A stretch of 39,252 nucleotides of DNA from a virus: the UHGV virus genome UHGV-0390443. One strand, written 5' to 3'. Both the position numbers and the translations under genes were made by a program. Every line of letters starts with the position of its first letter. The stretch's first letter is position 1. Below, piece by piece: positions 995 to 31,304 of the stretch. Under the pieces are notes generated by a model. It searched no databases, was not told the origin of the DNA, and saw nothing but the letters and a program-made list of their open reading frames with translations.

Positions 995-1061
995 AGCTAT
1001 TGCCTGATATTTATTTCAGATAATAAATATTCACCCATAAGGTAACAAAAATCAAGGATAG

Positions 1062-1093
1062 TTACCTATGGGGTGCATTTACCTGTTGGGTAA
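1062..1093. promoter_or_regulatory. Tandem operators in the switch region: TTACCTATGGGGTGC (1062..1076) and TTACCTGTTGGGTAA (1079..1093), centres 17 bp apart
   Basis: Dyad-symmetric sites between divergent genes 764..994(-) and 1149..1733(+); also flanked by GGTAAC...GTTACC inverted repeat 1041..1066. Confidence 0.6.
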
Positions 1094-1148: not shown

Positions 1149-1733
1149 ATGAAAAGTATCCAGGACGTCCGCAGGCAAAATCTCAACGACTTGATCGACC
1201 GTGAATTCAATGGTGTTCAGACGCGGATGGCAGAAAAACTTGGAACTCAGGCAAATCTGGTAAACCGCTGGGCTCTTGGCAAGAAGGTTATCGGCGACCA
1301 GGTTGCGCGAAAAATTGAAGCTGCCGCCAATAAACCCCGTAACTGGCTTGATATCGATCGCTCGCTTTCTCAGGAAGGTTTTCAGCCTGTCGGCCCAAGC
1401 GACATTGGTCAGCTGGCGGCTCACAACCTGGAACGCTGGATGAGCGAAAGCCGCGACCTTTCAACACAGGGAAAACTTCACCGCGCATCCGGCGTCGCCC
1501 AGGTGACAATCAGCCGCCTGTTAAACAATGAGGTCAGCGTTTCCATTTCCACCCTGGAGAATGTTGCATCCGCATTCGGGCGTCACGGCTATGAATTACT
1601 GATTCACCCGCACGACCCTGCGACCATCAACTATGACCGCTCGCGCTACGCATTGTTACCCGAAACCGAGAAAGCAAAGATCGAAAGTTACATTGAATTT
1701 GTCATCAACCAGAACGAAAAAAACAAACAATAA
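1149..1733 (+). CDS. Phage repressor-like regulator with two HTH modules (CII/XRE-like N-terminal HTH plus second HTH); no LexA-like peptidase domain evident
   Basis: 194-aa ORF; motifs QTRMAEKLGTQANLVNRWALGKK and LHRASGVAQVTISRLLNNEVSVSISTLENVASAFG; CI-like position (divergent from Cro-like gene, followed by terminator). Confidence 0.65.
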   Translation: MKSIQDVRRQNLNDLIDREFNGVQTRMAEKLGTQANLVNRWALGKKVIGDQVARKIEAAANKPRNWLDIDRSLSQEGFQPVGPSDIGQLAAHNLERWMSESRDLSTQGKLHRASGVAQVTISRLLNNEVSVSISTLENVASAFGRHGYELLIHPHDPATINYDRSRYALLPETEKAKIESYIEFVINQNEKNKQ

Positions 1734-1790: not shown

Positions 1791-1867
1791 TTACCTTAAG
1801 GGTAATTTTTTTAACTCATATCTATTGACACCAAACCAAATACGCATAATTATTACCTCAACGGTAA
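1791..1867. promoter_or_regulatory. Early plus-strand promoter region with two operators: TTACCTTAAGGGTAA (1791..1805) and TTACCTCAACGGTAA (1853..1867), flanking TTGACA at 1825..1830
   Basis: Perfect dyads; -35-like hexamer between them; immediately upstream of RBS GAGGTGA and ATG 1887. Confidence 0.6.
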
Positions 1868-9263: not shown

Positions 9264-11804
9264 TCATTTTTTTACATTGCCATTTTCAATGGCTAAAATT
9301 CTCTTTTCCATATTATCAATTCTCTCCCAGCATTGCTGAATTGATTTAACAATAGGCGGGATGAATTCATCGTAACCAAGTGAGTAAACATCATCCCCAC
9401 CATTTTTCAAGTGATGCTGTAGTCCACCGAACTCAACACCTAATTCTTCACACAGTTTCAATACGTCCTGTGCAATAAACCAGTGATGGTATCGTTGACG
9501 TTTTTTACTGCCGTCAGGAGTTTTCTGCACTACTTCAAGATATTTTTCTTCGACATTCTCAATAGCTGATATAGTAATTCCATCAACATCTCGTTCTACT
9601 TTTTTTGGTACAATTCTTGTTTTTTCAATAACATCAACATAATCATCACGCATATCCCAGCGACCATCGACAGGACGAAGCCCAAGGATAAATTCAATCC
9701 CCAGCAAGGTATCTCGGATATCTGTTTTATCACGCGCATCAGATCTGTTTTGCACAGTTCCATATACATATGTCGTTGTGGAAGAATTGCCAAGCTGCAC
9801 CTGGTTACTTCCAGACACCCTTGCATCATTGCCAACAGTTGTTGTGTTGGTAAGTGATGATGTGCTTTCCCCTGATTGAGTTAATCTACCTGAATTATGT
9901 CCAATAGCCGTGTTTAATGCGCCGGTTGTATTTGTGACAAGAGAGCCAGACCCGATTGCAACGTTACTGCTTCCCGATGTTGTTCCTTTTAATGCCTGCT
10001 GTCCAACCGCAACATTATTATCACCCGTTGCTGCTATAAGTGCCATGTGACCAATAGAAACGGTAAATGAACCTAGCGTTTGAGTTTCACCGCATGCCCC
10101 ATAACCAATTACAACAACATTATCTGTAATTGTTGACTCGGTTGCCGCTCCAGCACCAATAACAACGCTTTCATTCCCGGCAAGATTCTTGCGCATTGCG
10201 AACATTCCAATGCCAACATTATCATGCCCAGTCCCTGTTCCTGCAGCCTCCGCAGCACCAAGACAGTTTCCTGCTCTGTAGCCAACCATGGTGTTATTTG
10301 AACCAATAGAGAAGTCTCCGGCAAAAGAGCCTACGTATACACTATTAGACTGTGAGTAATCTCCAGGATTTCCATTCGCCCGATATCCTACTGCAACTGT
10401 ATAAATAGTATCTGGAGCCTCAGCCATGGCCTCAAAGCCAACCCCAACGTTATATCTACCGCCCTTAACTTTTTCTCCTGCACCAAGTCCGAAGAATGAG
10501 TTATAGCTCCCGGTTGTTAGCCACTCGCCAGCAACAGAACCTACAGCAGTGTTTCCTGTTCCAGTACATCGATACAAAGTCAGGAAGCCAACTCCGGTAT
10601 TATTATTTCCTGAAATATTACTCATCAATGATTTTGACCCAATGGCAGTATTGTTAACACCATCGGTCAGATCCTGTAACGCTCGCGGGCCAAATGCTGT
10701 ATTATCGTAACCCTTTGGCGCTGTTGTTGGATCTGGTAACTCAGGGGTTAGTTTTTCACCACCACCACCATTGGCACAAAGATTGTAAGATCGAATAAAT
10801 TCAGCCACTGGCCCAAGTTTTAAATAACCATTGGCAATATTAATTCTGACACTTACATTAACTGAGCTACCAGGAGCTTCTATTGTCCTGTCATCAACCC
10901 AGGTAAAACTCTGTGGTATCCCGTCATAAGTTAATGTCACATCTCCTTTATCATTATAATTATAGAACAATGTATAACGCTCATTTATAGATTCAGAACC
11001 TGATGATCCTCCTCTCCTCCACCACTCTGCATTATCAAAAATAAGTAATCCCGGACCATAATATTTAGCTTTCTGTCCCAAAATCATAGGGCTTGATAAT
11101 CTCCATACCCCCTCAGGAACATATATATTGCTACTTATTCTTTCAGCATTATTAAAAGCAGTATCACATAGCTCGTCACCACCTTCTTTAGCTCCAAAGT
11201 CCAGAACACTGACAGTATCCCGCATCTTATCCTGGAACGTTCGATATACTGCTCCAGAACCATACTGAATAAACCAACCAAAACCACCAACAACCCCGGC
11301 GATTGCAGCATCGACATAATTACGCATTGAGCGATTATTTACAGCGTCCTGCTCAAGTGATGGATCTGCAAGGTTAGAAATTCTGTTTTGCTTTGCATCG
11401 TAATATTTTGCAAGCAAAGATGGTTTCATCAATGCACGTCTGAACCATCCAAAACATTGCTGGATCAGCATCGTCAGATAGTCAAAGGCATCTTCATGCA
11501 CCTCGGGGAAAAATTTTCCCTGATTACGAAGATCAGTCTCCTGCACCACATCAAGCACACGATCTATCGTAATTCGCCATCCAGCAGCAAGCGGCGACGG
11601 AAGAACAACAGAACCGCCACTATAAGTGCCCGCCCCAGTTACCATATAACCGGTATCCAGAACCAATTCTGTTACGTTCCCGTTCAGGTCAGACACCTGA
11701 ACAACCAGGTCGGATTTTTTGAAAATACGGAAGGTGTACGGGAATGATGTCGTAATGCCGTTACCGGTGTATTCGTTGTGGTCAACTTCGGTTGAGACCG
11801 TCAT
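9264..11804 (-). CDS. Tailspike / tail fibre with Gly-rich beta-helical repeats and C-terminal peptidase S74-type intramolecular chaperone domain
   Basis: 846 aa; central repeated NTA-x-G motifs; C-terminus SDARDKTDIRDTLLGIEFILGLRPV...DEFIPPIVKSIQQC typical of auto-cleaving chaperone domains. Confidence 0.8.
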   Translation of the reverse strand: MTVSTEVDHNEYTGNGITTSFPYTFRIFKKSDLVVQVSDLNGNVTELVLDTGYMVTGAGTYSGGSVVLPSPLAAGWRITIDRVLDVVQETDLRNQGKFFPEVHEDAFDYLTMLIQQCFGWFRRALMKPSLLAKYYDAKQNRISNLADPSLEQDAVNNRSMRNYVDAAIAGVVGGFGWFIQYGSGAVYRTFQDKMRDTVSVLDFGAKEGGDELCDTAFNNAERISSNIYVPEGVWRLSSPMILGQKAKYYGPGLLIFDNAEWWRRGGSSGSESINERYTLFYNYNDKGDVTLTYDGIPQSFTWVDDRTIEAPGSSVNVSVRINIANGYLKLGPVAEFIRSYNLCANGGGGEKLTPELPDPTTAPKGYDNTAFGPRALQDLTDGVNNTAIGSKSLMSNISGNNNTGVGFLTLYRCTGTGNTAVGSVAGEWLTTGSYNSFFGLGAGEKVKGGRYNVGVGFEAMAEAPDTIYTVAVGYRANGNPGDYSQSNSVYVGSFAGDFSIGSNNTMVGYRAGNCLGAAEAAGTGTGHDNVGIGMFAMRKNLAGNESVVIGAGAATESTITDNVVVIGYGACGETQTLGSFTVSIGHMALIAATGDNNVAVGQQALKGTTSGSSNVAIGSGSLVTNTTGALNTAIGHNSGRLTQSGESTSSLTNTTTVGNDARVSGSNQVQLGNSSTTTYVYGTVQNRSDARDKTDIRDTLLGIEFILGLRPVDGRWDMRDDYVDVIEKTRIVPKKVERDVDGITISAIENVEEKYLEVVQKTPDGSKKRQRYHHWFIAQDVLKLCEELGVEFGGLQHHLKNGGDDVYSLGYDEFIPPIVKSIQQCWERIDNMEKRILAIENGNVKK

Positions 11805-11908: not shown

Positions 11909-11923
11909 TTACCTTTCGGGTGA
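11909..11923. promoter_or_regulatory. Operator-like dyad TTACCTTTCGGGTGA (imperfect)
   Basis: Family consensus match; upstream of LexA box and small antirepressor-like gene. Confidence 0.4.
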
Positions 11924-11960: not shown

Positions 11961-11980
11961 TACTGTATAAATATACAGTT
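11961..11980. promoter_or_regulatory. LexA (SOS) box TACTGTATAAATATACAGTT
   Basis: CTGT-N8-ACAG with AT-rich spacer, near-perfect to E. coli consensus TACTGTATATATATACAGTA; 20 bp upstream of ATG 12001. Confidence 0.75.
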
Positions 11981-12000
11981 ATTGCATGGAGAAGATAAGA

Positions 12001-12257
12001 TGCAGCAGTATCACTATCCACTGGAAGACGGATTTACCGAAAGGATTCACACGCCGGGAGGCGTCAGATCACTGGTGGAGGGATCGCACTTGATGAAATT
12101 ACTCCGGGATCTCGATAAGGATGGATTTAATGTCGATGGCCCACTTGCCGAACTGACTGCACTGATTAACTACGTCACCAGCTCACAGATGTCTATGCAG
12201 GATCTGCAAACACATCTCGACTATTGTGCCGAACAATTACGAAAGCAAACCAGATAA
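12001..12257 (+). CDS. Small antirepressor-like protein (paralog of the C-terminal domain of the downstream Bro-N antirepressor), putatively SOS-induced
   Basis: 85 aa from ATG 12001 (RBS GGAGAAG); HTPGGVRSLVEGSHLMKLLRDLDKDGFNVDGPLAELTALINYV aligns with HSPSGVLGLTEHSLLMNLLNQLQEDGHDVSGAAAELTTMFCYI of 12571..13263; ORF-track start 11877 rejected because the LexA box lies inside it. Confidence 0.6.
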
Positions 12258-12289
12258 GGTTTGCAATTACCAAGTGGAGTGCTTATATT

Positions 12290-12304
12290 TACCTTTGCGG
12301 TAAA
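12290..12304. promoter_or_regulatory. Operator TTACCTTTGCGGTAA
   Basis: Perfect family dyad, extended palindrome ATTTACC...GGTAAAT. Confidence 0.55.
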
Positions 12305-12570
12305 TTTACATCGCACTCCTCTTGTGCCATAGTAATCAGGCACTGGCAAAATCCAGTGCCGGGATTGGTCTCCCGGATTACTACAGAGGCACATATGCCG
12401 CATAAGCGGTTTTTTTATGTGTAAAGCGCACCTATTCTATGGTGGGCTGTGTGGGGGCACCGAAAGGTGCGCCGGGTTCCTTTGTAGCCGGTAAGACCAA
12501 CTCTGCACAGTTCACCACCATCTGATTGGTCTCAGCGGTGGTGATTAACCTAACTACAAAGGTGATCGCC

Positions 12571-13263
12571 ATGAATACCAAACCTTCCATCTTTTCCTTT
12601 GAGTCATCCTGCCAGATCCGTATGTTCATGATTGACGGAGAACCTTGGTTTGTCACCAAAGATGTGTGCAATGCTTTGAATATTGATGTTACACAAGCGA
12701 GAAAACTTGATAAAAAAGGCTGGAACAAAAAGGGGCTGTATTCAATACAGACCCCTGGTGGAATACAAGAACTATCCATCGTTTCAGAATCAGGTCTCTA
12801 CATCCTTATTCTGCGTTGCAAAGAGGCAATGACAGAGGGAACGAGAGCATTCAGATTTCTTGAATGGGTTACAGGTGAGGTTCTTCCTCAGATCCGCCGC
12901 ACCGGAAGTTACATTAAAAACTCGCTCCCGCAGGAAGAACGCATAAAGATGGTTGCCGACCAGGTAGCCAACGCCACGGCGTCAGCAGTAATGCAGGCGA
13001 TGAAGATAGAGAACAAAACCTACAGTGCCCCACTGAAGCCCGGCTACCGTAGCCTGATTCATTCGCCGTCTGGTGTTCTCGGCCTGACGGAGCACTCACT
13101 GCTGATGAATCTGCTGAACCAGTTACAGGAAGACGGGCATGATGTATCAGGCGCGGCGGCGGAGCTGACCACCATGTTCTGCTACATCGTCGGTGTGAGC
13201 AAATGCCTGCGTGATATCCAGACGCACGCGGAGTACATCAACGACAAGGCTGGGTTCTTCTGA
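12571..13263 (+). CDS. Antirepressor with Bro-N N-terminal domain and Ant/KilA-C-like C-terminal domain
   Basis: ATG 12571 with RBS AAAGGTGA; Bro-N signature SIFSFESSCQIRMFMIDGEPWFVTKDVCNALNI. Confidence 0.75.
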   Translation: MNTKPSIFSFESSCQIRMFMIDGEPWFVTKDVCNALNIDVTQARKLDKKGWNKKGLYSIQTPGGIQELSIVSESGLYILILRCKEAMTEGTRAFRFLEWVTGEVLPQIRRTGSYIKNSLPQEERIKMVADQVANATASAVMQAMKIENKTYSAPLKPGYRSLIHSPSGVLGLTEHSLLMNLLNQLQEDGHDVSGAAAELTTMFCYIVGVSKCLRDIQTHAEYINDKAGFF

Positions 13264-13329: not shown

Positions 13330-13344
13330 TTACCTTAAAGGTAA
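13330..13344. promoter_or_regulatory. Operator TTACCTTAAAGGTAA overlapping a putative promoter (-10-like TAATAT 13325..13330)
   Basis: Perfect dyad 27 bp upstream of ATG 13371. Confidence 0.55.
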
Positions 13345-13370: not shown

Positions 13371-13580
13371 ATGGGATTTTGGTTCGCTCGTACAAAAACG
13401 AGGGATAATGCACCCAGCCCTCAGGCAAAAAATGCAGAAGTTCCGGCGTCAGCGCAGGTTAACAAGCGTGGTGGAGTATATATCTCATCACAGCAAATTT
13501 CTGAGCTTCCTGAGGTTAAGGAGATGCGTCGTCTCGCTGCTGCAATTGTTAAACAGGATCTTGCCACTGTAAGGAAGTAG
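13371..13580 (+). CDS. Small soluble hypothetical protein (69 aa), first gene of a two-gene moron operon
   Basis: ORF with strong RBS GAGGAGGAG; stop overlaps start region of the membrane protein gene. Confidence 0.55.
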   Translation: MGFWFARTKTRDNAPSPQAKNAEVPASAQVNKRGGVYISSQQISELPEVKEMRRLAAAIVKQDLATVRK

Positions 13581-14446
13581 TGTTGCTAGCTCTTCTAATT
13601 ATCCCAATCCTGGTTAGCGGTTATATTATGATAACCGCTAACCAGTATCATTATTTCCGTTTATACCGACACGAAGGCCAGCTTCTTTATATGAAAGTAG
13701 CGGCACTAGGTACATATTGCCTTGTTGCATCAGTAATAATTGCAGCCGCTATAAAATATAAATGGCCTGATTTTCACCTAGTTCACGATATGGTGGAAAC
13801 TTTTAATGTAACATCAAAACCAGAAACAGATAGAATTTACATGTGGCTGCTTCTTCTCTCAGCCACATCCATTTGCTTCTCTTTGTGTTATGTGTCTGTT
13901 GTGTGGGTGAAAGATTTTCTTCTTGGTTGTTTTTATAAACGTGATATTTACGAGCAAAAAACAGAGGCAATGAAGGCCAGAGTACTGCGAAAAACTTACT
14001 CGCAAGGTTCTTTAGACTTACTATTGCTTGATGCTATTGAATCGGATCCTAAACGACCAATGCTGATTACTTTATCATCAAACAAAGTGTATGTTGGAAT
14101 AATAAATGGTTCTGGTGAACCAACGGAAAATCAGGGTCCGCATCAGCACATATCTTTTGTTCCTTTAATGTCAGGATACAGGAACAAAGAAAACTTATCT
14201 GTCACATTCACTAATGCTTATCCAGGAGAAATACAGGTCAAGCGGACTGCAGCAATAAGAGGAATTAGCAGAAAGAAAGTGCCAGGACTTGAGATCATGG
14301 TGTCTATTGACGAAATAAGTTATATATCATGGTTTGATTTTGAAGTATATAAAGCAACAAATAACAAAGTAGAATCCAGGGGGCACGTTATTCGTGTTAC
14401 CAAAAATGGAAGAAATATATATCAAAGAAATAGCAAAAAAGAATAG
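13580..14446 (+). CDS. Membrane protein with about 3 N-terminal TM helices and a ~170-aa C-terminal soluble domain; function unknown
   Basis: 288-aa ORF, low GC; hydrophobic segments LLALLIIPILVSGYIMITA, VAALGTYCLVASVIIAAAI, IYMWLLLLSATSICFSLCYVSVVWV; start (GTG 13580 or TTG 13583) uncertain. Confidence 0.55.
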   Translation: MLLALLIIPILVSGYIMITANQYHYFRLYRHEGQLLYMKVAALGTYCLVASVIIAAAIKYKWPDFHLVHDMVETFNVTSKPETDRIYMWLLLLSATSICFSLCYVSVVWVKDFLLGCFYKRDIYEQKTEAMKARVLRKTYSQGSLDLLLLDAIESDPKRPMLITLSSNKVYVGIINGSGEPTENQGPHQHISFVPLMSGYRNKENLSVTFTNAYPGEIQVKRTAAIRGISRKKVPGLEIMVSIDEISYISWFDFEVYKATNNKVESRGHVIRVTKNGRNIYQRNSKKE

Positions 14447-14447
14447 C

Positions 14448-14472
14448 CCGCGCCGCGGGCTTTTTTGTGTCT
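14448..14472 (+). terminator. Rho-independent terminator after membrane protein gene
   Basis: GCCCGCG-CC-GCGGGC followed by TTTTTTGT. Confidence 0.75.
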
Positions 14473-14512
14473 GCGGACTCCCGCCCGGGCGGCGGTGGCA
14501 TTCGTTAAAAAC

Positions 14513-14531
14513 AAGGCCGCGAAAGCGGCCT
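14513..14531 (-). terminator. Putative terminator for the convergent minus-strand gene
   Basis: AGGCCGC-GAAA-GCGGCCT; minus-strand downstream TGTTTTTAAC. Confidence 0.5.
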
Positions 14532-14543
14532 GTGACATGTCAC
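14532..14543. repeat. 12-bp perfect palindrome GTGACATGTCAC (copy 1 of 3; others at 31882..31893 with one mismatch and 34147..34158)
   Basis: Exact string seen three times, with shared 14-bp context CGTGACATGTCACA in two copies. Confidence 0.6.
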
Positions 14544-14544
14544 G

Positions 14545-14994
14545 CTACTTGCGAAATCTTTCTTTACCCTTCCAGCCAGTAGATGTTAGTTCAGGATGAA
14601 TGGTTCCCAATATAAAGCCAACCATAGCGGAGCGAGGATCTTCTATTTTATCCGTTAATTCTTCGGCATAACTCACAGGCAACCAAGCAACAAGATCACC
14701 AATCCTCAGCTTTGGTCCTTTGCTGTAAGATGAATCGGCAATAACAAAAAATCCACCATCAGCTGAGCACACCTTCAGCATTGCCCTTTGTCTTCCAGAA
14801 TCCAGCAAAACTGGCTGTTCCCCACTGGGACCAGGTATGATGATGGCTGGCATTGGTTTATTGGCTGAAAGGCTTGTGTCAAGATACTTACACGCATACT
14901 CAAAAGCTGAAAAGTTATCCTTAAAGATAAGAGGTTGAATTTTATTGCTAACCTCCTTACCACCGATTAATCTGTTGATCATCTTCTTGAACAT
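14545..14994 (-). CDS. Hypothetical cytoplasmic protein (about 149 aa)
   Basis: ORF track 14545..15003; ATG 14994 preferred (RBS AGGTGA, spacing 5). Confidence 0.5.
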   Translation of the reverse strand: MFKKMINRLIGGKEVSNKIQPLIFKDNFSAFEYACKYLDTSLSANKPMPAIIIPGPSGEQPVLLDSGRQRAMLKVCSADGGFFVIADSSYSKGPKLRIGDLVAWLPVSYAEELTDKIEDPRSAMVGFILGTIHPELTSTGWKGKERFRK

Positions 14995-15006
14995 AAAGGT
15001 CACCTA

Positions 15007-31227: not shown

Positions 31228-31304
31228 GTGGCATTAGCTCAGTTGGACAGAGCAACCGCCTTCTAAGCGGTTGGTCGCAGGTTCGAATCCTGCATGCCAC
31301 GCCA
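31228..31304 (+). tRNA. tRNA-Arg (anticodon UCU), with encoded CCA
   Basis: Manually folded cloverleaf: acceptor GTGGCAT/ATGCCAC, D-stem GCTC/GAGC, anticodon stem ACCGC/GCGGT with loop CTTCTAA, T-stem GCAGG/CCTGC with TTCGAAT loop. Confidence 0.85.

What the first reader, a model, noticed from the sequence alone, without database searches (positions are those of the whole stretch)
11961..13263. LexA-box-controlled small antirepressor-like gene paired with a full Bro-N antirepressor; repressor lacks a self-cleavage domain
A near-consensus SOS box (TACTGTATAAATATACAGTT) sits 20 bp upstream of an 85-aa ORF whose sequence is homologous to the C-terminal ~65 aa of the downstream 230-aa Bro-N antirepressor. 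The candidate repressor (1149..1733) has two HTH modules and no recognisable LexA/CI-type S24 peptidase region. This suggests induction by a LexA-derepressed antirepressor (as in Gifsy-type prophages and coliphage 186 Tum) rather than RecA-stimulated repressor autocleavage. A C-domain-only paralog as the SOS-controlled component is unusual.
Basis: partly seen in the sequence, partly recalled or inferred. Interest (0 to 1): 0.7.

Follow-up and report, generated by a model that had tools for sequence, protein, structure and literature searches.

The report
Known LexA-controlled phage antirepressor, plus RNA-gated second one
This is the induction switch of an E. coli phiV10/epsilon15-like phage: a small DNA-damage-controlled protein already known from Salmonella phage SPC32H that disables the phage repressor, followed by a second antirepressor gene gated by a P1-type antisense RNA, so the parts are ordinary and only their combination is undescribed.

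Summary
A near-consensus LexA box (11961..11980) lies 19 nt upstream of an 85-aa ORF (12000..12257). That ORF is homologous (42% over 74 aa, E 2e-15) to the C-terminus of the Bro-N protein (12571..13263). The repressor (1149..1733) has no S24 peptidase domain.

The switch is not new. The 85-aa protein is 88% identical to Ant of Salmonella phage SPC32H (PDB 5D50 chain E). The repressor is the homologue of SPC32H Rep (5D50 chain A). The window is a phiV10-like Uetakevirus, the same genus. The small stand-alone protein is the usual form of this family; the Bro-N fusion is the minority form.

The C4 loops pair with the Bro-N gene's ribosome-binding site, and these pairings covary across 24 specificity types. 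A palindrome, TTACC-N5-GGTAA, probably the Rep operator, sits in this module's promoter.

The locus is therefore two known systems joined, both probably acting on Rep: SPC32H-type SOS antirepression and P1 immI/Gifsy-1 isrK-type RNA-gated antirepression. I rate it a new member of a known kind, of low to moderate interest.

The parts
1149..1733 (+). rep: phage repressor, homologue of SPC32H Rep; two HTH-like regions, no S24 peptidase domain
   Evidence: PDB 5D50_A E 4e-42 over residues 1-190. Pfam gives HTH_3 and a YdaS-like HTH only. 100% identical to Rep of phiV10, ZX5 and EC.W1-9.
1031..1093 (.). Cluster of three TTACC-N5-GGTAA palindromes (1031, 1062, 1079) just upstream of rep: putative Rep operators
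   Evidence: The same motif flanks rep in SPC32H.
1791..1867 (.). Two exact TTACC-N5-GGTAA palindromes (1791, 1853) just downstream of rep, ahead of the early genes: putative Rep operators
11909..11923 (.). TTACCTTTCGGGTGA, an operator-like palindrome with 1 mismatch, between the tail-fibre gene and the LexA box
   Evidence: An exact palindrome occupies the equivalent place upstream of ant in SPC32H and ZX5.
11961..11980 (+). LexA (SOS) box TACTGTATAAATATACAGTT
   Evidence: Single match in the window, 0.01 expected. The position is conserved in 57/57 orthologous loci.
12000..12257 (+). ant: 85-aa small antirepressor, orthologue of SPC32H Ant
   Evidence: PDB 5D50_E E 4e-47. 88% identity to the SPC32H ant gene, which is annotated 'anti-repressor protein'.
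12261..12289 (+). Promoter-like site P1: TTGCAA, 17 nt, TATATT
   Evidence: Conserved in relatives that carry the operator.
12289..12303 (.). Exact TTACCTTTGCGGTAA palindrome (putative Rep operator) between the -10 of P1 and the -35 of P2
   Evidence: Found at this position in 55 of 56 loci whose downstream antirepressor has the Ant-like C-domain, and in none of the 50 loci with neither Bro-N nor Ant-like C-domain downstream.
12305..12333 (+). Promoter-like site P2: TTTACA, 17 nt, TG-extended CATAGT, placing the start near 12340, the first base of isrK
12340..12416 (+). isrK-type RNA. Carries target copies a1 (TTGGTCT, 12365..12371) and b1 (CTACAGAGG, 12381..12389) and an intrinsic terminator (12397..12410 plus a T run).
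   Evidence: Rfam RF01394, 74.7 bits against a gathering score of 50. Terminator scan. Coordinates.
12435..12522 (+). C4-type antisense RNA with recognition loops b' (CCTTTGTAG, 12479..12487) and a' (AGACCAA, 12494..12500)
   Evidence: Rfam RF01695, 78.6 bits against a gathering score of 45. Coordinates.
12526..12562 (+). Leader of the Bro-N gene with C4 targets a2 (TTGGTCT, 12526..12532) and b2 (CTACAAAGG, 12554..12562). b2 overlaps the Shine-Dalgarno AAGGTG, which lies 6-7 nt before the ATG at 12571.
   Evidence: a1/a2 and b1/b2 covary with a'/b' across 24 specificity types.
12571..13263 (+). Second antirepressor (230 aa): Bro-N domain (residues 16-106) fused to an Ant-like C-domain (residues ~149-225)
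   Evidence: Pfam Bro-N. C-domain against 5D50_E, E 1.6e-13. 80% identical to the ZX5 ORF4 anti-repressor, and identical apart from one residue from about residue 100 on.
13330..13344 (.). Exact TTACCTTAAAGGTAA palindrome ahead of two genes of unknown function (13371..13580 and 13580..14446)

Best explanation
The window is a phiV10-like Uetakevirus. Its lysis-lysogeny switch has two antirepressor modules that both probably act on the same non-cleavable repressor, Rep (1149..1733).

Module 1 (11961..12257) is the SPC32H-type SOS switch. In a lysogen, host LexA sits on the box at 11961..11980 and keeps the 85-aa Ant off. DNA damage removes LexA and Ant is made. Ant binds Rep, breaks up the Rep tetramer, and Rep leaves its operators. 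I infer these operators to be the TTACC-N5-GGTAA palindromes.

Module 2 (12261..13263) is an immunity unit of the P1 immI / Gifsy-1 isrK type. Tandem promoter-like sites flank a Rep-operator palindrome. They would drive isrK, which carries decoy copies a1/b1 and a leaky terminator, then the C4 antisense RNA. Next comes a leader whose a2/b2 sites pair with the C4 loops, and then a Bro-N protein with an Ant-like C-terminal domain. C4 pairing with b2 would cover the Shine-Dalgarno sequence and block translation of this second antirepressor.

The module would thus be silent in a lysogen because of Rep and C4. It would come on after Rep is inactivated or when C4 is not cognate. It could then lock in the lytic decision, or act as an anti-immunity function on infection.

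What is shown here: the homologies, the RNA family matches, the complementarities and their covariation, and the motif statistics and associations. What is inferred: LexA binding, Ant-Rep binding in this phage, Rep binding to TTACC-N5-GGTAA, and the order of events.
For: Module 1:
- Ant matches PDB 5D50_E at E 4e-47 and is 88% identical to the SPC32H ant gene.
- Rep matches 5D50_A at E 4e-42 over its full length and has no S24 domain.
- The LexA box is unique in the window and conserved in position in 57/57 orthologous loci.
- Gene order is the same as in SPC32H and phiV10: tail spike, divergent ant, virion genes.
- The secondary literature states that Ant is made after LexA self-cleavage and inhibits the repressor by protein-protein contact (PMC7380047). 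It also states that tetrameric Ant binds two Rep dimers and breaks the tetramer (PMC9638917).
- phiV10-species prophages were induced 21- to 47-fold by a DNA-damaging microcin (bioRxiv 10.64898/2026.05.26.727859).

Module 2:
- Rfam isrK scores 74.7 bits and C4 78.6 bits.
- a' pairs with a1/a2 and b' with b1/b2, and b2 lies on the Shine-Dalgarno sequence.
- In 119 loci with 24 distinct a'/b' combinations, the targets change together with the loops.
- The Bro-N C-domain matches 5D50_E at E 1.6e-13. It keeps all 20 positions that are invariant among the small Ants aligned.
- ZX5 ORF4 is 80% identical overall, and identical apart from one residue from about residue 100 on. When overexpressed it lowered lysogen titres from 10^9 to 10^6 (PMC9782041).

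Operator:
- There are 9 exact TTACC-N5-GGTAA sites against 0.03 expected. They cluster on both sides of rep here and in SPC32H.
- The site is present at the isrK promoter in 55/56 loci with an Ant-like C-domain downstream, and absent from all 50 loci with neither Bro-N nor Ant-like C-domain downstream.
- 55 of 60 operator-type loci also carry a small Ant nearby.
Against: - No experiment exists for this phage. I could not open the primary SPC32H papers. The SPC32H Rep operator sequence and the ant transcription start are therefore unconfirmed.
- The consensus scan found no sigma-70 promoter overlapping the LexA box.
- Rep is only 42% identical to SPC32H Rep, so transferring the Ant-Rep contact is an inference.
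- TTACC-N5-GGTAA could belong to a different phage regulator.
- Unlike P1 (icd) and Gifsy-1 (orf45), there is no upstream ORF translationally coupled to the antirepressor gene. The details of C4 control may therefore differ.
- In Gifsy-1, IsrK activates translation, so the net sign of RNA control in vivo is uncertain.
Confidence: 0.75

Rival explanations
1. One reading: the Bro-N protein is the original antirepressor, and the 85-aa ORF is an unusual truncated paralog that has taken over SOS control.
For: The two proteins are homologous over 74 aa and adjacent. Many phage antirepressors are Bro-N, AntA or Rha proteins (PHROG names).
Against: The stand-alone ~86-aa form is the one crystallised with Rep. 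It is the only form in SPC32H and epsilon15, which have one Ant-like match and no second module. It dominates the family: most of the 62 representatives are 80-95 aa. The Ant-like domain is fused to at least four different N-terminal domains (Bro-N, AntA, Rha, ORF6N), which fits a mobile C-terminal module rather than truncation of one Bro-N ancestor.
Confidence: 0.1
2. Single SOS operon: both antirepressors are expressed from the LexA-controlled promoter by read-through. The RNAs only tune the amount, so the Bro-N protein is equally an SOS effector.
For: No terminator lies between the ant stop codon (12257) and isrK. The isrK terminator has only a 5-bp stem. In Gifsy-1 a fraction of transcripts read through the isrK terminator (PMC4825925).
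Against: Promoter-like sites P1 and P2 and a palindrome are conserved between the genes. EC.W1-9 has two opposite-strand genes inserted between ant and isrK yet keeps module 2 with its own promoter region. C4 complementarity to the Shine-Dalgarno sequence argues for separate translational gating. Related C4 modules occur without any small Ant.
Confidence: 0.2
3. The Bro-N protein does not target Rep. It is a DNA-binding regulator or anti-host factor, and its Ant-like domain serves only for oligomerisation.
For: Function of the Bro-N domain is poorly defined. Ant is a tetramer, so the shared domain could mainly provide self-association (PMC9638917).
Against: A near-identical protein (ZX5 ORF4) shifted the phage away from lysogeny by three logs and lowered repressor transcription. 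The Ant-like C-domain and the operator palindrome at the promoter co-occur almost perfectly. All 20 invariant Ant positions are kept.
Confidence: 0.12
4. TTACC-N5-GGTAA is not the Rep operator but the site of another phage regulator, for example a Cro-like or late regulator. In that case module 2 is not under Rep control.
For: No binding data were available to me. Some sites lie far from the immunity region (30891, 34054, 37914, 37976).
Against: The densest clusters flank rep on both sides in this phage and in SPC32H, although the two Reps are only 42% identical. The motif tracks the presence of an Ant-like, that is Rep-directed, domain.
Confidence: 0.2

Closest known systems
Salmonella phage SPC32H Rep/Ant antirepression system (Kim & Ryu 2013, J Virol; Kim et al. 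2016, PNAS; PDB 5D4Z, 5D50)
   Same: Same genus (Uetakevirus). Ant is 88% identical and of the same length. Rep is homologous over its full length and lacks S24. The LexA box lies about 20 nt before the ant start. The position between the tail spike and virion genes is the same. The same TTACC-N5-GGTAA palindromes flank rep and lie upstream of ant.
   Different: Rep is only 42% identical. SPC32H and epsilon15 have nothing between ant and the next virion gene: no isrK, no C4 and no Bro-N gene.
P1/P7 immI region: C4 antisense RNA controlling icd-ant (Citron & Schuster 1990; RNase P processing, Hartmann et al. 1995; cited from my own knowledge)
   Same: C4 family RNA (RF01695). It has two recognition elements, a' and b', with a target copy upstream (a1/b1) and one downstream (a2/b2) at the ribosome-binding site. 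Specificity variants covary as in P1 versus P7. A palindrome that is probably the primary repressor's operator sits at the promoter, as Op51 does in P1.
   Different: The host phage is a podovirus. The target is the antirepressor's own Shine-Dalgarno sequence, not that of an upstream icd ORF. The antirepressor is a Bro-N protein with an Ant-like domain. It stands in tandem with a LexA-controlled antirepressor.
Gifsy-1 isrK-orf45-anrP-isrJ locus (Hershko-Shalev et al. 2016, PMC4825925)
   Same: An isrK RNA with a leaky terminator is followed by a processed stable RNA (STnc1160, in the position of C4) and an antirepressor gene. IsrK pairs with the downstream region.
   Different: There is no orf45-like ORF coupled to the antirepressor. 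A 25-aa ORF ends 76 nt before the ATG. The promoter differs: tandem promoter-like sites with a palindrome here, against a single TTGAC-17-TATATT promoter in loci without the operator. No downstream isrJ was detected by Rfam.
Escherichia phage vB_EcoP_ZX5 ORF4 'anti-repressor' (Li et al. 2022, PMC9782041)
   Same: Closest studied phage. Rep and small Ant are 100% identical to the window's. ORF4 is 80% identical to the Bro-N protein, and identical apart from one residue from about residue 100 on. Overexpression reduced lysogeny.
   Different: That paper treats ORF4 as the only antirepressor. Its GenBank record labels the small Ant 'hypothetical protein' and the C4 region an 'ash family protein'. 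ZX5 carries the other C4 specificity (a' ACGCCAA, b' CCTTTTAG).
LexA-controlled antirepressors Tum (coliphage 186) and GfoA/GfhA (Gifsy phages; Lemire et al. 2011, PMC3121763)
   Same: Same logic: the repressor is not cleaved, and a LexA-repressed small protein inactivates it.
   Different: No sequence relationship was detected. The small Ant matches no Pfam family above threshold. I recall the SPC32H authors describing it as structurally distinct from those antirepressors (my recollection of the abstract).

Membership tests
SPC32H-type Ant/Rep SOS antirepression | Small (~86 aa) Ant protein homologous to SPC32H Ant | tested here: met
   phmmer against PDB 5D50_E: E 4e-47, residues 2-84. tblastn: 88% identity to the SPC32H ant gene.
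SPC32H-type Ant/Rep SOS antirepression | Rep-type repressor (N-terminal DNA-binding domain plus C-terminal domain) without a self-cleavage domain | tested here: met
   5D50_A E 4e-42 over residues 1-190. No Peptidase_S24 hit at E<=0.1.
SPC32H-type Ant/Rep SOS antirepression | LexA box immediately upstream of ant, overlapping its promoter | tested here: inconclusive
   The box is present, unique and conserved. The consensus scan found no promoter overlapping it, and I could not read the published transcription start.
SPC32H-type Ant/Rep SOS antirepression | LexA binding to the box, Ant binding to Rep, and release of Rep from DNA | not testable with these tools
   Needs EMSA, pull-down or genetics. 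Inferred from orthology only.
P1 immI / C4 antisense-controlled antirepressor | C4 family RNA upstream of the antirepressor gene on the same strand | tested here: met
   RF01695, 78.6 bits (gathering score 45), at 12435..12522.
P1 immI / C4 antisense-controlled antirepressor | Two loop elements complementary to sites at the ribosome-binding site of the controlled gene, with covariation between specificity types | tested here: met
   a' pairs with a2 over 7 nt and b' with b2 over 9 nt, and b2 overlaps the Shine-Dalgarno sequence. In all 24 a'/b' types a2 lies about +5 to +7 after C4. In 21 of 24, b2 lies about +31 to +53. Both change together with the loops.
P1 immI / C4 antisense-controlled antirepressor | Small upstream ORF (icd in P1, orf45 in Gifsy-1) whose translation is the direct target and is coupled to ant | tested here: not met
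   The only ORF there (12417..12494, 25 aa) ends 76 nt before the ATG at 12571. b2 lies directly on the antirepressor's own Shine-Dalgarno sequence.
P1 immI / C4 antisense-controlled antirepressor | Operator of the primary repressor at the module's promoter (Op51 in P1) | tested here: inconclusive
   An exact TTACC-N5-GGTAA lies at 12289..12303 between P1 and P2. It is strongly associated with Rep-type loci, but binding is untested.
isrK RNA (RF01394) | Match to the covariance model, including the terminator hairpin | tested here: met
   74.7 bits (gathering score 50), full model 1-77. Terminator found at 12397..12410.
Bro-N domain proteins (PF02498) | Bro-N domain above the Pfam gathering score | tested here: met
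   51.4 bits against 25.6, residues 16-106.
LexA/CI-type self-cleaving repressors | C-terminal S24 peptidase domain | tested here: not met
   No PF00717 hit. The C-terminal half aligns to the SPC32H Rep C-domain (5D4Z, E 4e-20) instead.
Tum (186) / Gifsy GfoA-type antirepressors | Sequence homology to Tum or GfoA | not tested
   No direct comparison was run. The small Ant matches no Pfam family above its cutoff. The resemblance is in logic only.

The most novel reading that the evidence does not exclude
The Ant fold may be a portable Rep-binding module that this phage group uses twice: once under LexA as the SOS trigger, and once under Rep plus C4 RNA. The second copy would work as a feed-forward lock on induction. 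It would also work as a P1/P7-style anti-immunity weapon. Phages with 100% identical Rep and near-identical small Ant carry different C4 specificities: the window and EC.W1-9 against phiV10 and ZX5. a' and b' variants reassort among relatives. Such phages would be heteroimmune and could induce each other's prophages, giving a second, RNA-coded immunity layer in podoviruses.
Probability: 0.35. Interest if true: 0.5.

Novelty: new member of a known kind. Interest (0 to 1): 0.28.

Why it matters
The switch itself adds nothing new to phage biology. It is the SPC32H mechanism in a common E. coli prophage: this region matched 542 of 5426 complete E. coli genomes.

The practical value is in annotation. 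The small Ant is labelled hypothetical in RefSeq and GenBank records. Its PHROG (phrog_450) is labelled 'unknown function'. The C4 RNA region is annotated as a protein in ZX5. The ZX5 study interpreted the Bro-N protein as the only antirepressor.

The tandem use of one repressor-binding domain under two different controls has not been described in the literature I could search. Neither has the existence of several RNA specificities behind one identical repressor. Together they offer a directly testable case of two-layer immunity outside P1/P7.

Tried and rejected
- Primary SPC32H papers. I tried to read J Virol 2013 and PNAS 2016 by DOI and PMC id. Neither is held, so I used citing papers, PDB molecule names and GenBank annotation.
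Position 12001 gave stop codons; the correct frame starts at 12000.
- Palindrome spacing. My first guess, TTACC-N6-GGTAA, was wrong and gave only chance-level hits. The spacer is N5.
- Whole-molecule RNAduplex of C4 against its neighbours was uninformative, because it ignores the C4 fold. I replaced it with a loop-restricted search for complementarity and a cognate versus non-cognate comparison.
- Promoter scan. It found no sigma-70 match over the LexA box. Manual candidates (TTGCTA-17-TATTGC, or -10 TATACA) are weak or leave no room for the Shine-Dalgarno sequence, so the ant promoter stays unresolved.
- Downstream genes. PADLOC found nothing for 13371..15003.
- Structure prediction of the Bro-N protein. 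I considered it and dropped it: the sequence match to 5D50_E (E 1.6e-13) already settles homology, and a single-chain model cannot test Rep binding.
- Word-indexed protein search. It returned only close small Ants. The exhaustive profile search was needed to see the fusions.
Full report
WHAT THE WINDOW IS

Region 11800..13400 matches temperate E. coli podoviruses of the genus Uetakevirus at 92-98% nucleotide identity. These include phiV10, vB_EcoP_ZX5, EC.W1-9 and TL-2011b. Gene order around the finding is the same as in phiV10 and Salmonella phage SPC32H. A tail-fibre or tail-spike gene lies on the minus strand (9264..11804). A short plus-strand region follows, then virion genes on the minus strand.

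CHECK OF THE OBSERVATION

The LexA box TACTGTATAAATATACAGTT is at 11961..11980. It has two mismatches to the 20-nt consensus. It is the only match with 3 or fewer mismatches in the window, against 0.01 expected.

GGAG lies at 11988, and 19 nt separate the box from the ATG.

The 85-aa product aligns with residues 149-222 of the 230-aa protein encoded at 12571..13263. Identity is 42% over 74 aa without gaps, E 2e-15. The larger protein has a Bro-N domain at residues 16-106.

The repressor candidate (1149..1733) shows an HTH_3 match at 106-147 and a weaker YdaS-like HTH at 21-61. It has no S24 peptidase domain. All elements of the observation are therefore real and far beyond chance.

WHAT THE SMALL GENE AND THE REPRESSOR ARE

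The 85-aa protein matches chain E of PDB 5D50, 'Anti-repressor protein', at E 4e-47 over residues 2-84. This is Ant of Salmonella phage SPC32H. The gene is annotated 'ant: anti-repressor protein' in KC911856, and the window protein is 88% identical to it.

The 194-aa repressor matches chain A of the same entry, 'Repressor', at E 4e-42 over its whole length. Its C-terminal half also matches 5D4Z.

Citing papers describe the system as follows. [quoted passage not shown] Rep binds DNA as a tetramer, and tetrameric Ant binds two Rep dimers and breaks the tetramer (PMC9638917, citing Kim et al. 2016). From my own memory of the 2013 abstract, a single-base change in the LexA box of the sister phage SPC32N makes Ant constitutive. 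I could not open either primary paper.

The LexA box is conserved. Of 57 small-Ant orthologues with upstream sequence, 46 have an exact CTGT-N8-ACAG ending 19-22 nt before the start codon. The other 11 have ATGT-N8-ACAG in the same place. The central eight bases vary.

Prophages of the phiV10 species were induced 21- to 47-fold by a DNA-damaging microcin.

THE SMALL PROTEIN IS THE USUAL FORM, NOT AN ODD TRUNCATION

I ran an exhaustive profile search with small Ants plus the Bro-N C-domain. It found only 62 representative clusters, and most are 80-95 aa. About ten carry the domain at the C-terminus of a longer protein. Their N-terminal parts are Bro-N, AntA, Phage_pRha or ORF6N.

SPC32H and epsilon15 have only the small gene. 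Each has one Ant-like match per genome, no second antirepressor gene and no RNA genes downstream.

The Ant fold therefore behaves as a portable module. It is usually free and is sometimes attached to the common N-terminal domains of phage antirepressors. The fused copy in the window keeps all 20 positions that are invariant among the small Ants I aligned. On its own it matches 5D50_E at E 1.6e-13.

WHAT LIES BETWEEN THE TWO GENES

Rfam finds an isrK RNA at 12340..12416 (74.7 bits, gathering score 50). It finds a C4 antisense RNA at 12435..12522 (78.6 bits, gathering score 45).

isrK ends in an intrinsic terminator, 12397..12410 followed by a run of T.

C4 has two exposed elements: b' (CCTTTGTAG, 12479..12487) and a' (AGACCAA, 12494..12500). 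Their complements occur twice:
- inside isrK, as a1 (TTGGTCT, 12365..12371) and b1 (CTACAGAGG, 12381..12389, with one G-U pair);
- in the leader of the Bro-N gene, as a2 (TTGGTCT, 12526..12532) and b2 (CTACAAAGG, 12554..12562).

b2 overlaps the Shine-Dalgarno AAGGTG before the ATG at 12571. From my own knowledge, this is the layout of the P1/P7 immI region (Citron and Schuster 1990). There C4 RNA, cut out of the same transcript, pairs with a2/b2 and prevents antirepressor synthesis.

The pairing is supported by covariation. A scan of viral contigs for the conserved C4 stem gave 119 usable loci with 24 different a'/b' combinations. In every type a1 and a2 change together with a', and a2 always lies 5-7 nt after C4. 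In 21 of the 24 types, b2 (31-53 nt after C4) changes with b' in the same way. Two types showed no b2 match in the leader and one is doubtful. For example, b' CCTTTTAG goes with CTAAAAGG, CCGTATGCG with CGCATACGG, and TTGAGTAG with CTACTCAA. phiV10 and ZX5 carry a' ACGCCAA and b' CCTTTTAG with matching targets.

The Gifsy-1 locus isrK-orf45-anrP is the studied relative. There the isrK promoter drives the whole unit and a fraction of transcripts read through the terminator. A stable processed RNA, STnc1160, occupies the position of C4. Short IsrK pairs with the downstream region and switches antirepressor translation on (PMC4825925).

One defining detail of P1 and Gifsy-1 is not met here: there is no upstream ORF coupled to the antirepressor gene. 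The only ORF (12417..12494, 25 aa) ends 76 nt before the ATG.

A PUTATIVE REP OPERATOR TIES THE TWO MODULES TOGETHER

The palindrome TTACC-N5-GGTAA occurs nine times exactly in the window, against 0.03 expected. Several one-mismatch copies also occur.

The copies cluster on both sides of rep: 1031, 1062 and 1079 upstream, and 1791 and 1853 downstream. Others lie at 11909 (one mismatch, 38 nt upstream of the LexA box), 12289, 13330, 30891, 34036/34054, 37914 and 37976.

SPC32H shows the same motif in the same relative places, including both flanks of rep and upstream of ant, although its Rep is only 42% identical.

At 12289..12303 the palindrome sits between two promoter-like sites. P1 is TTGCAA-17-TATATT at 12261..12289. 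P2 is TTTACA-17-CATAGT with an upstream TG at 12305..12333. P2 places the transcription start at about 12340, the first base of isrK.

Among the C4 loci from viral contigs, the palindrome is present at this position in 55 of 56 cases where the downstream antirepressor has the Ant-like C-domain. It is absent from all 50 loci with neither Bro-N nor Ant-like C-domain downstream. The loci without the palindrome that I listed use a single strong promoter of the TTGAC-17-TATATT type. Of 60 operator-type loci, 55 also carry a small Ant nearby, 30 of them in the same compact arrangement.

I infer that this palindrome is the Rep operator and that Rep holds module 2 off in a lysogen, as C1 does at Op51 of P1 (the P1 detail is from my own knowledge). 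Binding has not been tested.

EXPERIMENTAL SUPPORT FOR THE BRO-N PROTEIN AS AN ANTIREPRESSOR

ZX5 has a Rep and a small Ant that are 100% identical to the window's. Its ORF4 is 80% identical to the window's Bro-N protein, and identical apart from one residue from about residue 100 onward. Overexpressing ORF4 lowered lysogen titres from 10^9 to 10^6 and reduced repressor transcripts by 75% (PMC9782041). That paper does not discuss the small Ant or the RNAs. In the ZX5 record the small Ant is labelled 'hypothetical protein' and the C4 region 'ash family protein'.

MOST LIKELY MECHANISM

In a lysogen, LexA blocks ant, and Rep occupies its operators, including the one in the isrK promoter region. 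Any C4 RNA that is made covers the Shine-Dalgarno sequence of the Bro-N gene.

DNA damage removes LexA, and Ant is made and takes Rep off the DNA. Early promoters and module 2 open. isrK, C4 and the long transcript are then produced. The balance between C4 and its decoy sites in isrK sets how much Bro-N antirepressor is translated.

The second antirepressor then either reinforces the loss of Rep or serves mainly on infection. An incoming phage whose C4 type differs from that of a resident prophage could express its antirepressor and inactivate the shared Rep. This fits the finding that phages with identical Rep carry different C4 specificities, as P1 and P7 do.

The first half of this chain rests on close orthology to experiments. 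The second half is inference from sequence.

RIVALS

I consider four rivals:
- truncation of a Bro-N ancestor;
- a single SOS operon;
- a Bro-N protein that does not target Rep;
- a palindrome that belongs to another regulator.

Each is less likely, for the reasons given in the rival section. The single-operon idea is partly compatible with the main model, because no terminator separates ant from isrK.

NOVELTY AND SCORE

The finding as written describes a known system, the SPC32H-type LexA/Ant/Rep switch, in a very common E. coli prophage: this region matched 542 of 5426 complete genomes. The second module is a member of the known C4/isrK class.

I did not find three things described in the searchable literature. 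The first is the tandem arrangement. The second is the reuse of the Ant domain under two controls. The third is the presence of several RNA specificities behind one Rep.

I rate the locus a new member of a known kind, with interest 0.28. The more novel reading, two-layer immunity with P1/P7-like heteroimmunity, has a probability of about 0.35.

Noticed in passing
window 13610..13645: A perfect 15-bp inverted repeat (CTGGTTAGCGGTTAT, a 6-nt loop, ATAACCGCTAACCAG) lies inside the 5' end of the 288-aa ORF 13580..14446. The terminator scan flagged it. Its function is unknown.
   Followed up: no
window 12417..12494; L127 2655..2768; L001 3598..3665: A 25-aa ORF overlaps the C4 RNA. The same place is annotated 'ash family protein' in ZX5 and 'similar to SF0880' in phiV10. 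This is probably an RNA gene mis-annotated as a protein.
   Followed up: partly
window 12000..12257 and 1149..1733: Ant is 88% identical to SPC32H Ant, but the Rep it should bind is only 42% identical. Either the contact surface on Rep is a small conserved patch, or Ant is constrained by something else, such as tetramer formation.
   Followed up: no
window 12479..12500 compared with L001 and L127: Rep is 100% identical in the window, phiV10, ZX5 and EC.W1-9. The C4 recognition loops and their targets differ between two groups: the window and EC.W1-9 (AGACCAA, CCTTTGTAG) and phiV10 and ZX5 (ACGCCAA, CCTTTTAG). Among viral contigs, a' and b' variants occur in mixed combinations.
   Followed up: partly
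window 13371..14446: Two plus-strand genes of unknown function (69 aa, phrog_5739; 288 aa, phrog_3630) follow an exact TTACC-N5-GGTAA site at 13330. They have no Pfam or PADLOC match. ZX5 and EC.W1-9 have different genes at this position, so this looks like a variable cargo slot.
   Followed up: partly
L002 3482..4397 (phage EC.W1-9): Two minus-strand genes are inserted between the small ant gene and the isrK promoter region. This shows that the two modules can be separated.
   Followed up: no
window 31228..31304: tRNA-Arg (anticodon TCT), syntenic with the tRNA-Arg annotated in SPC32H.
   Followed up: yes
window 30891, 34036/34054, 37914, 37976, 6875: Further TTACC-N5-GGTAA palindromes lie far from the immunity region, mostly in intergenic gaps. 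If they are Rep sites, Rep controls many scattered promoters or forms DNA loops.
   Followed up: no
databases: The small Ant family is PHROG 450, labelled 'unknown function'. RefSeq/PGAP calls it a hypothetical protein, despite the crystal structure 5D50.
   Followed up: yes
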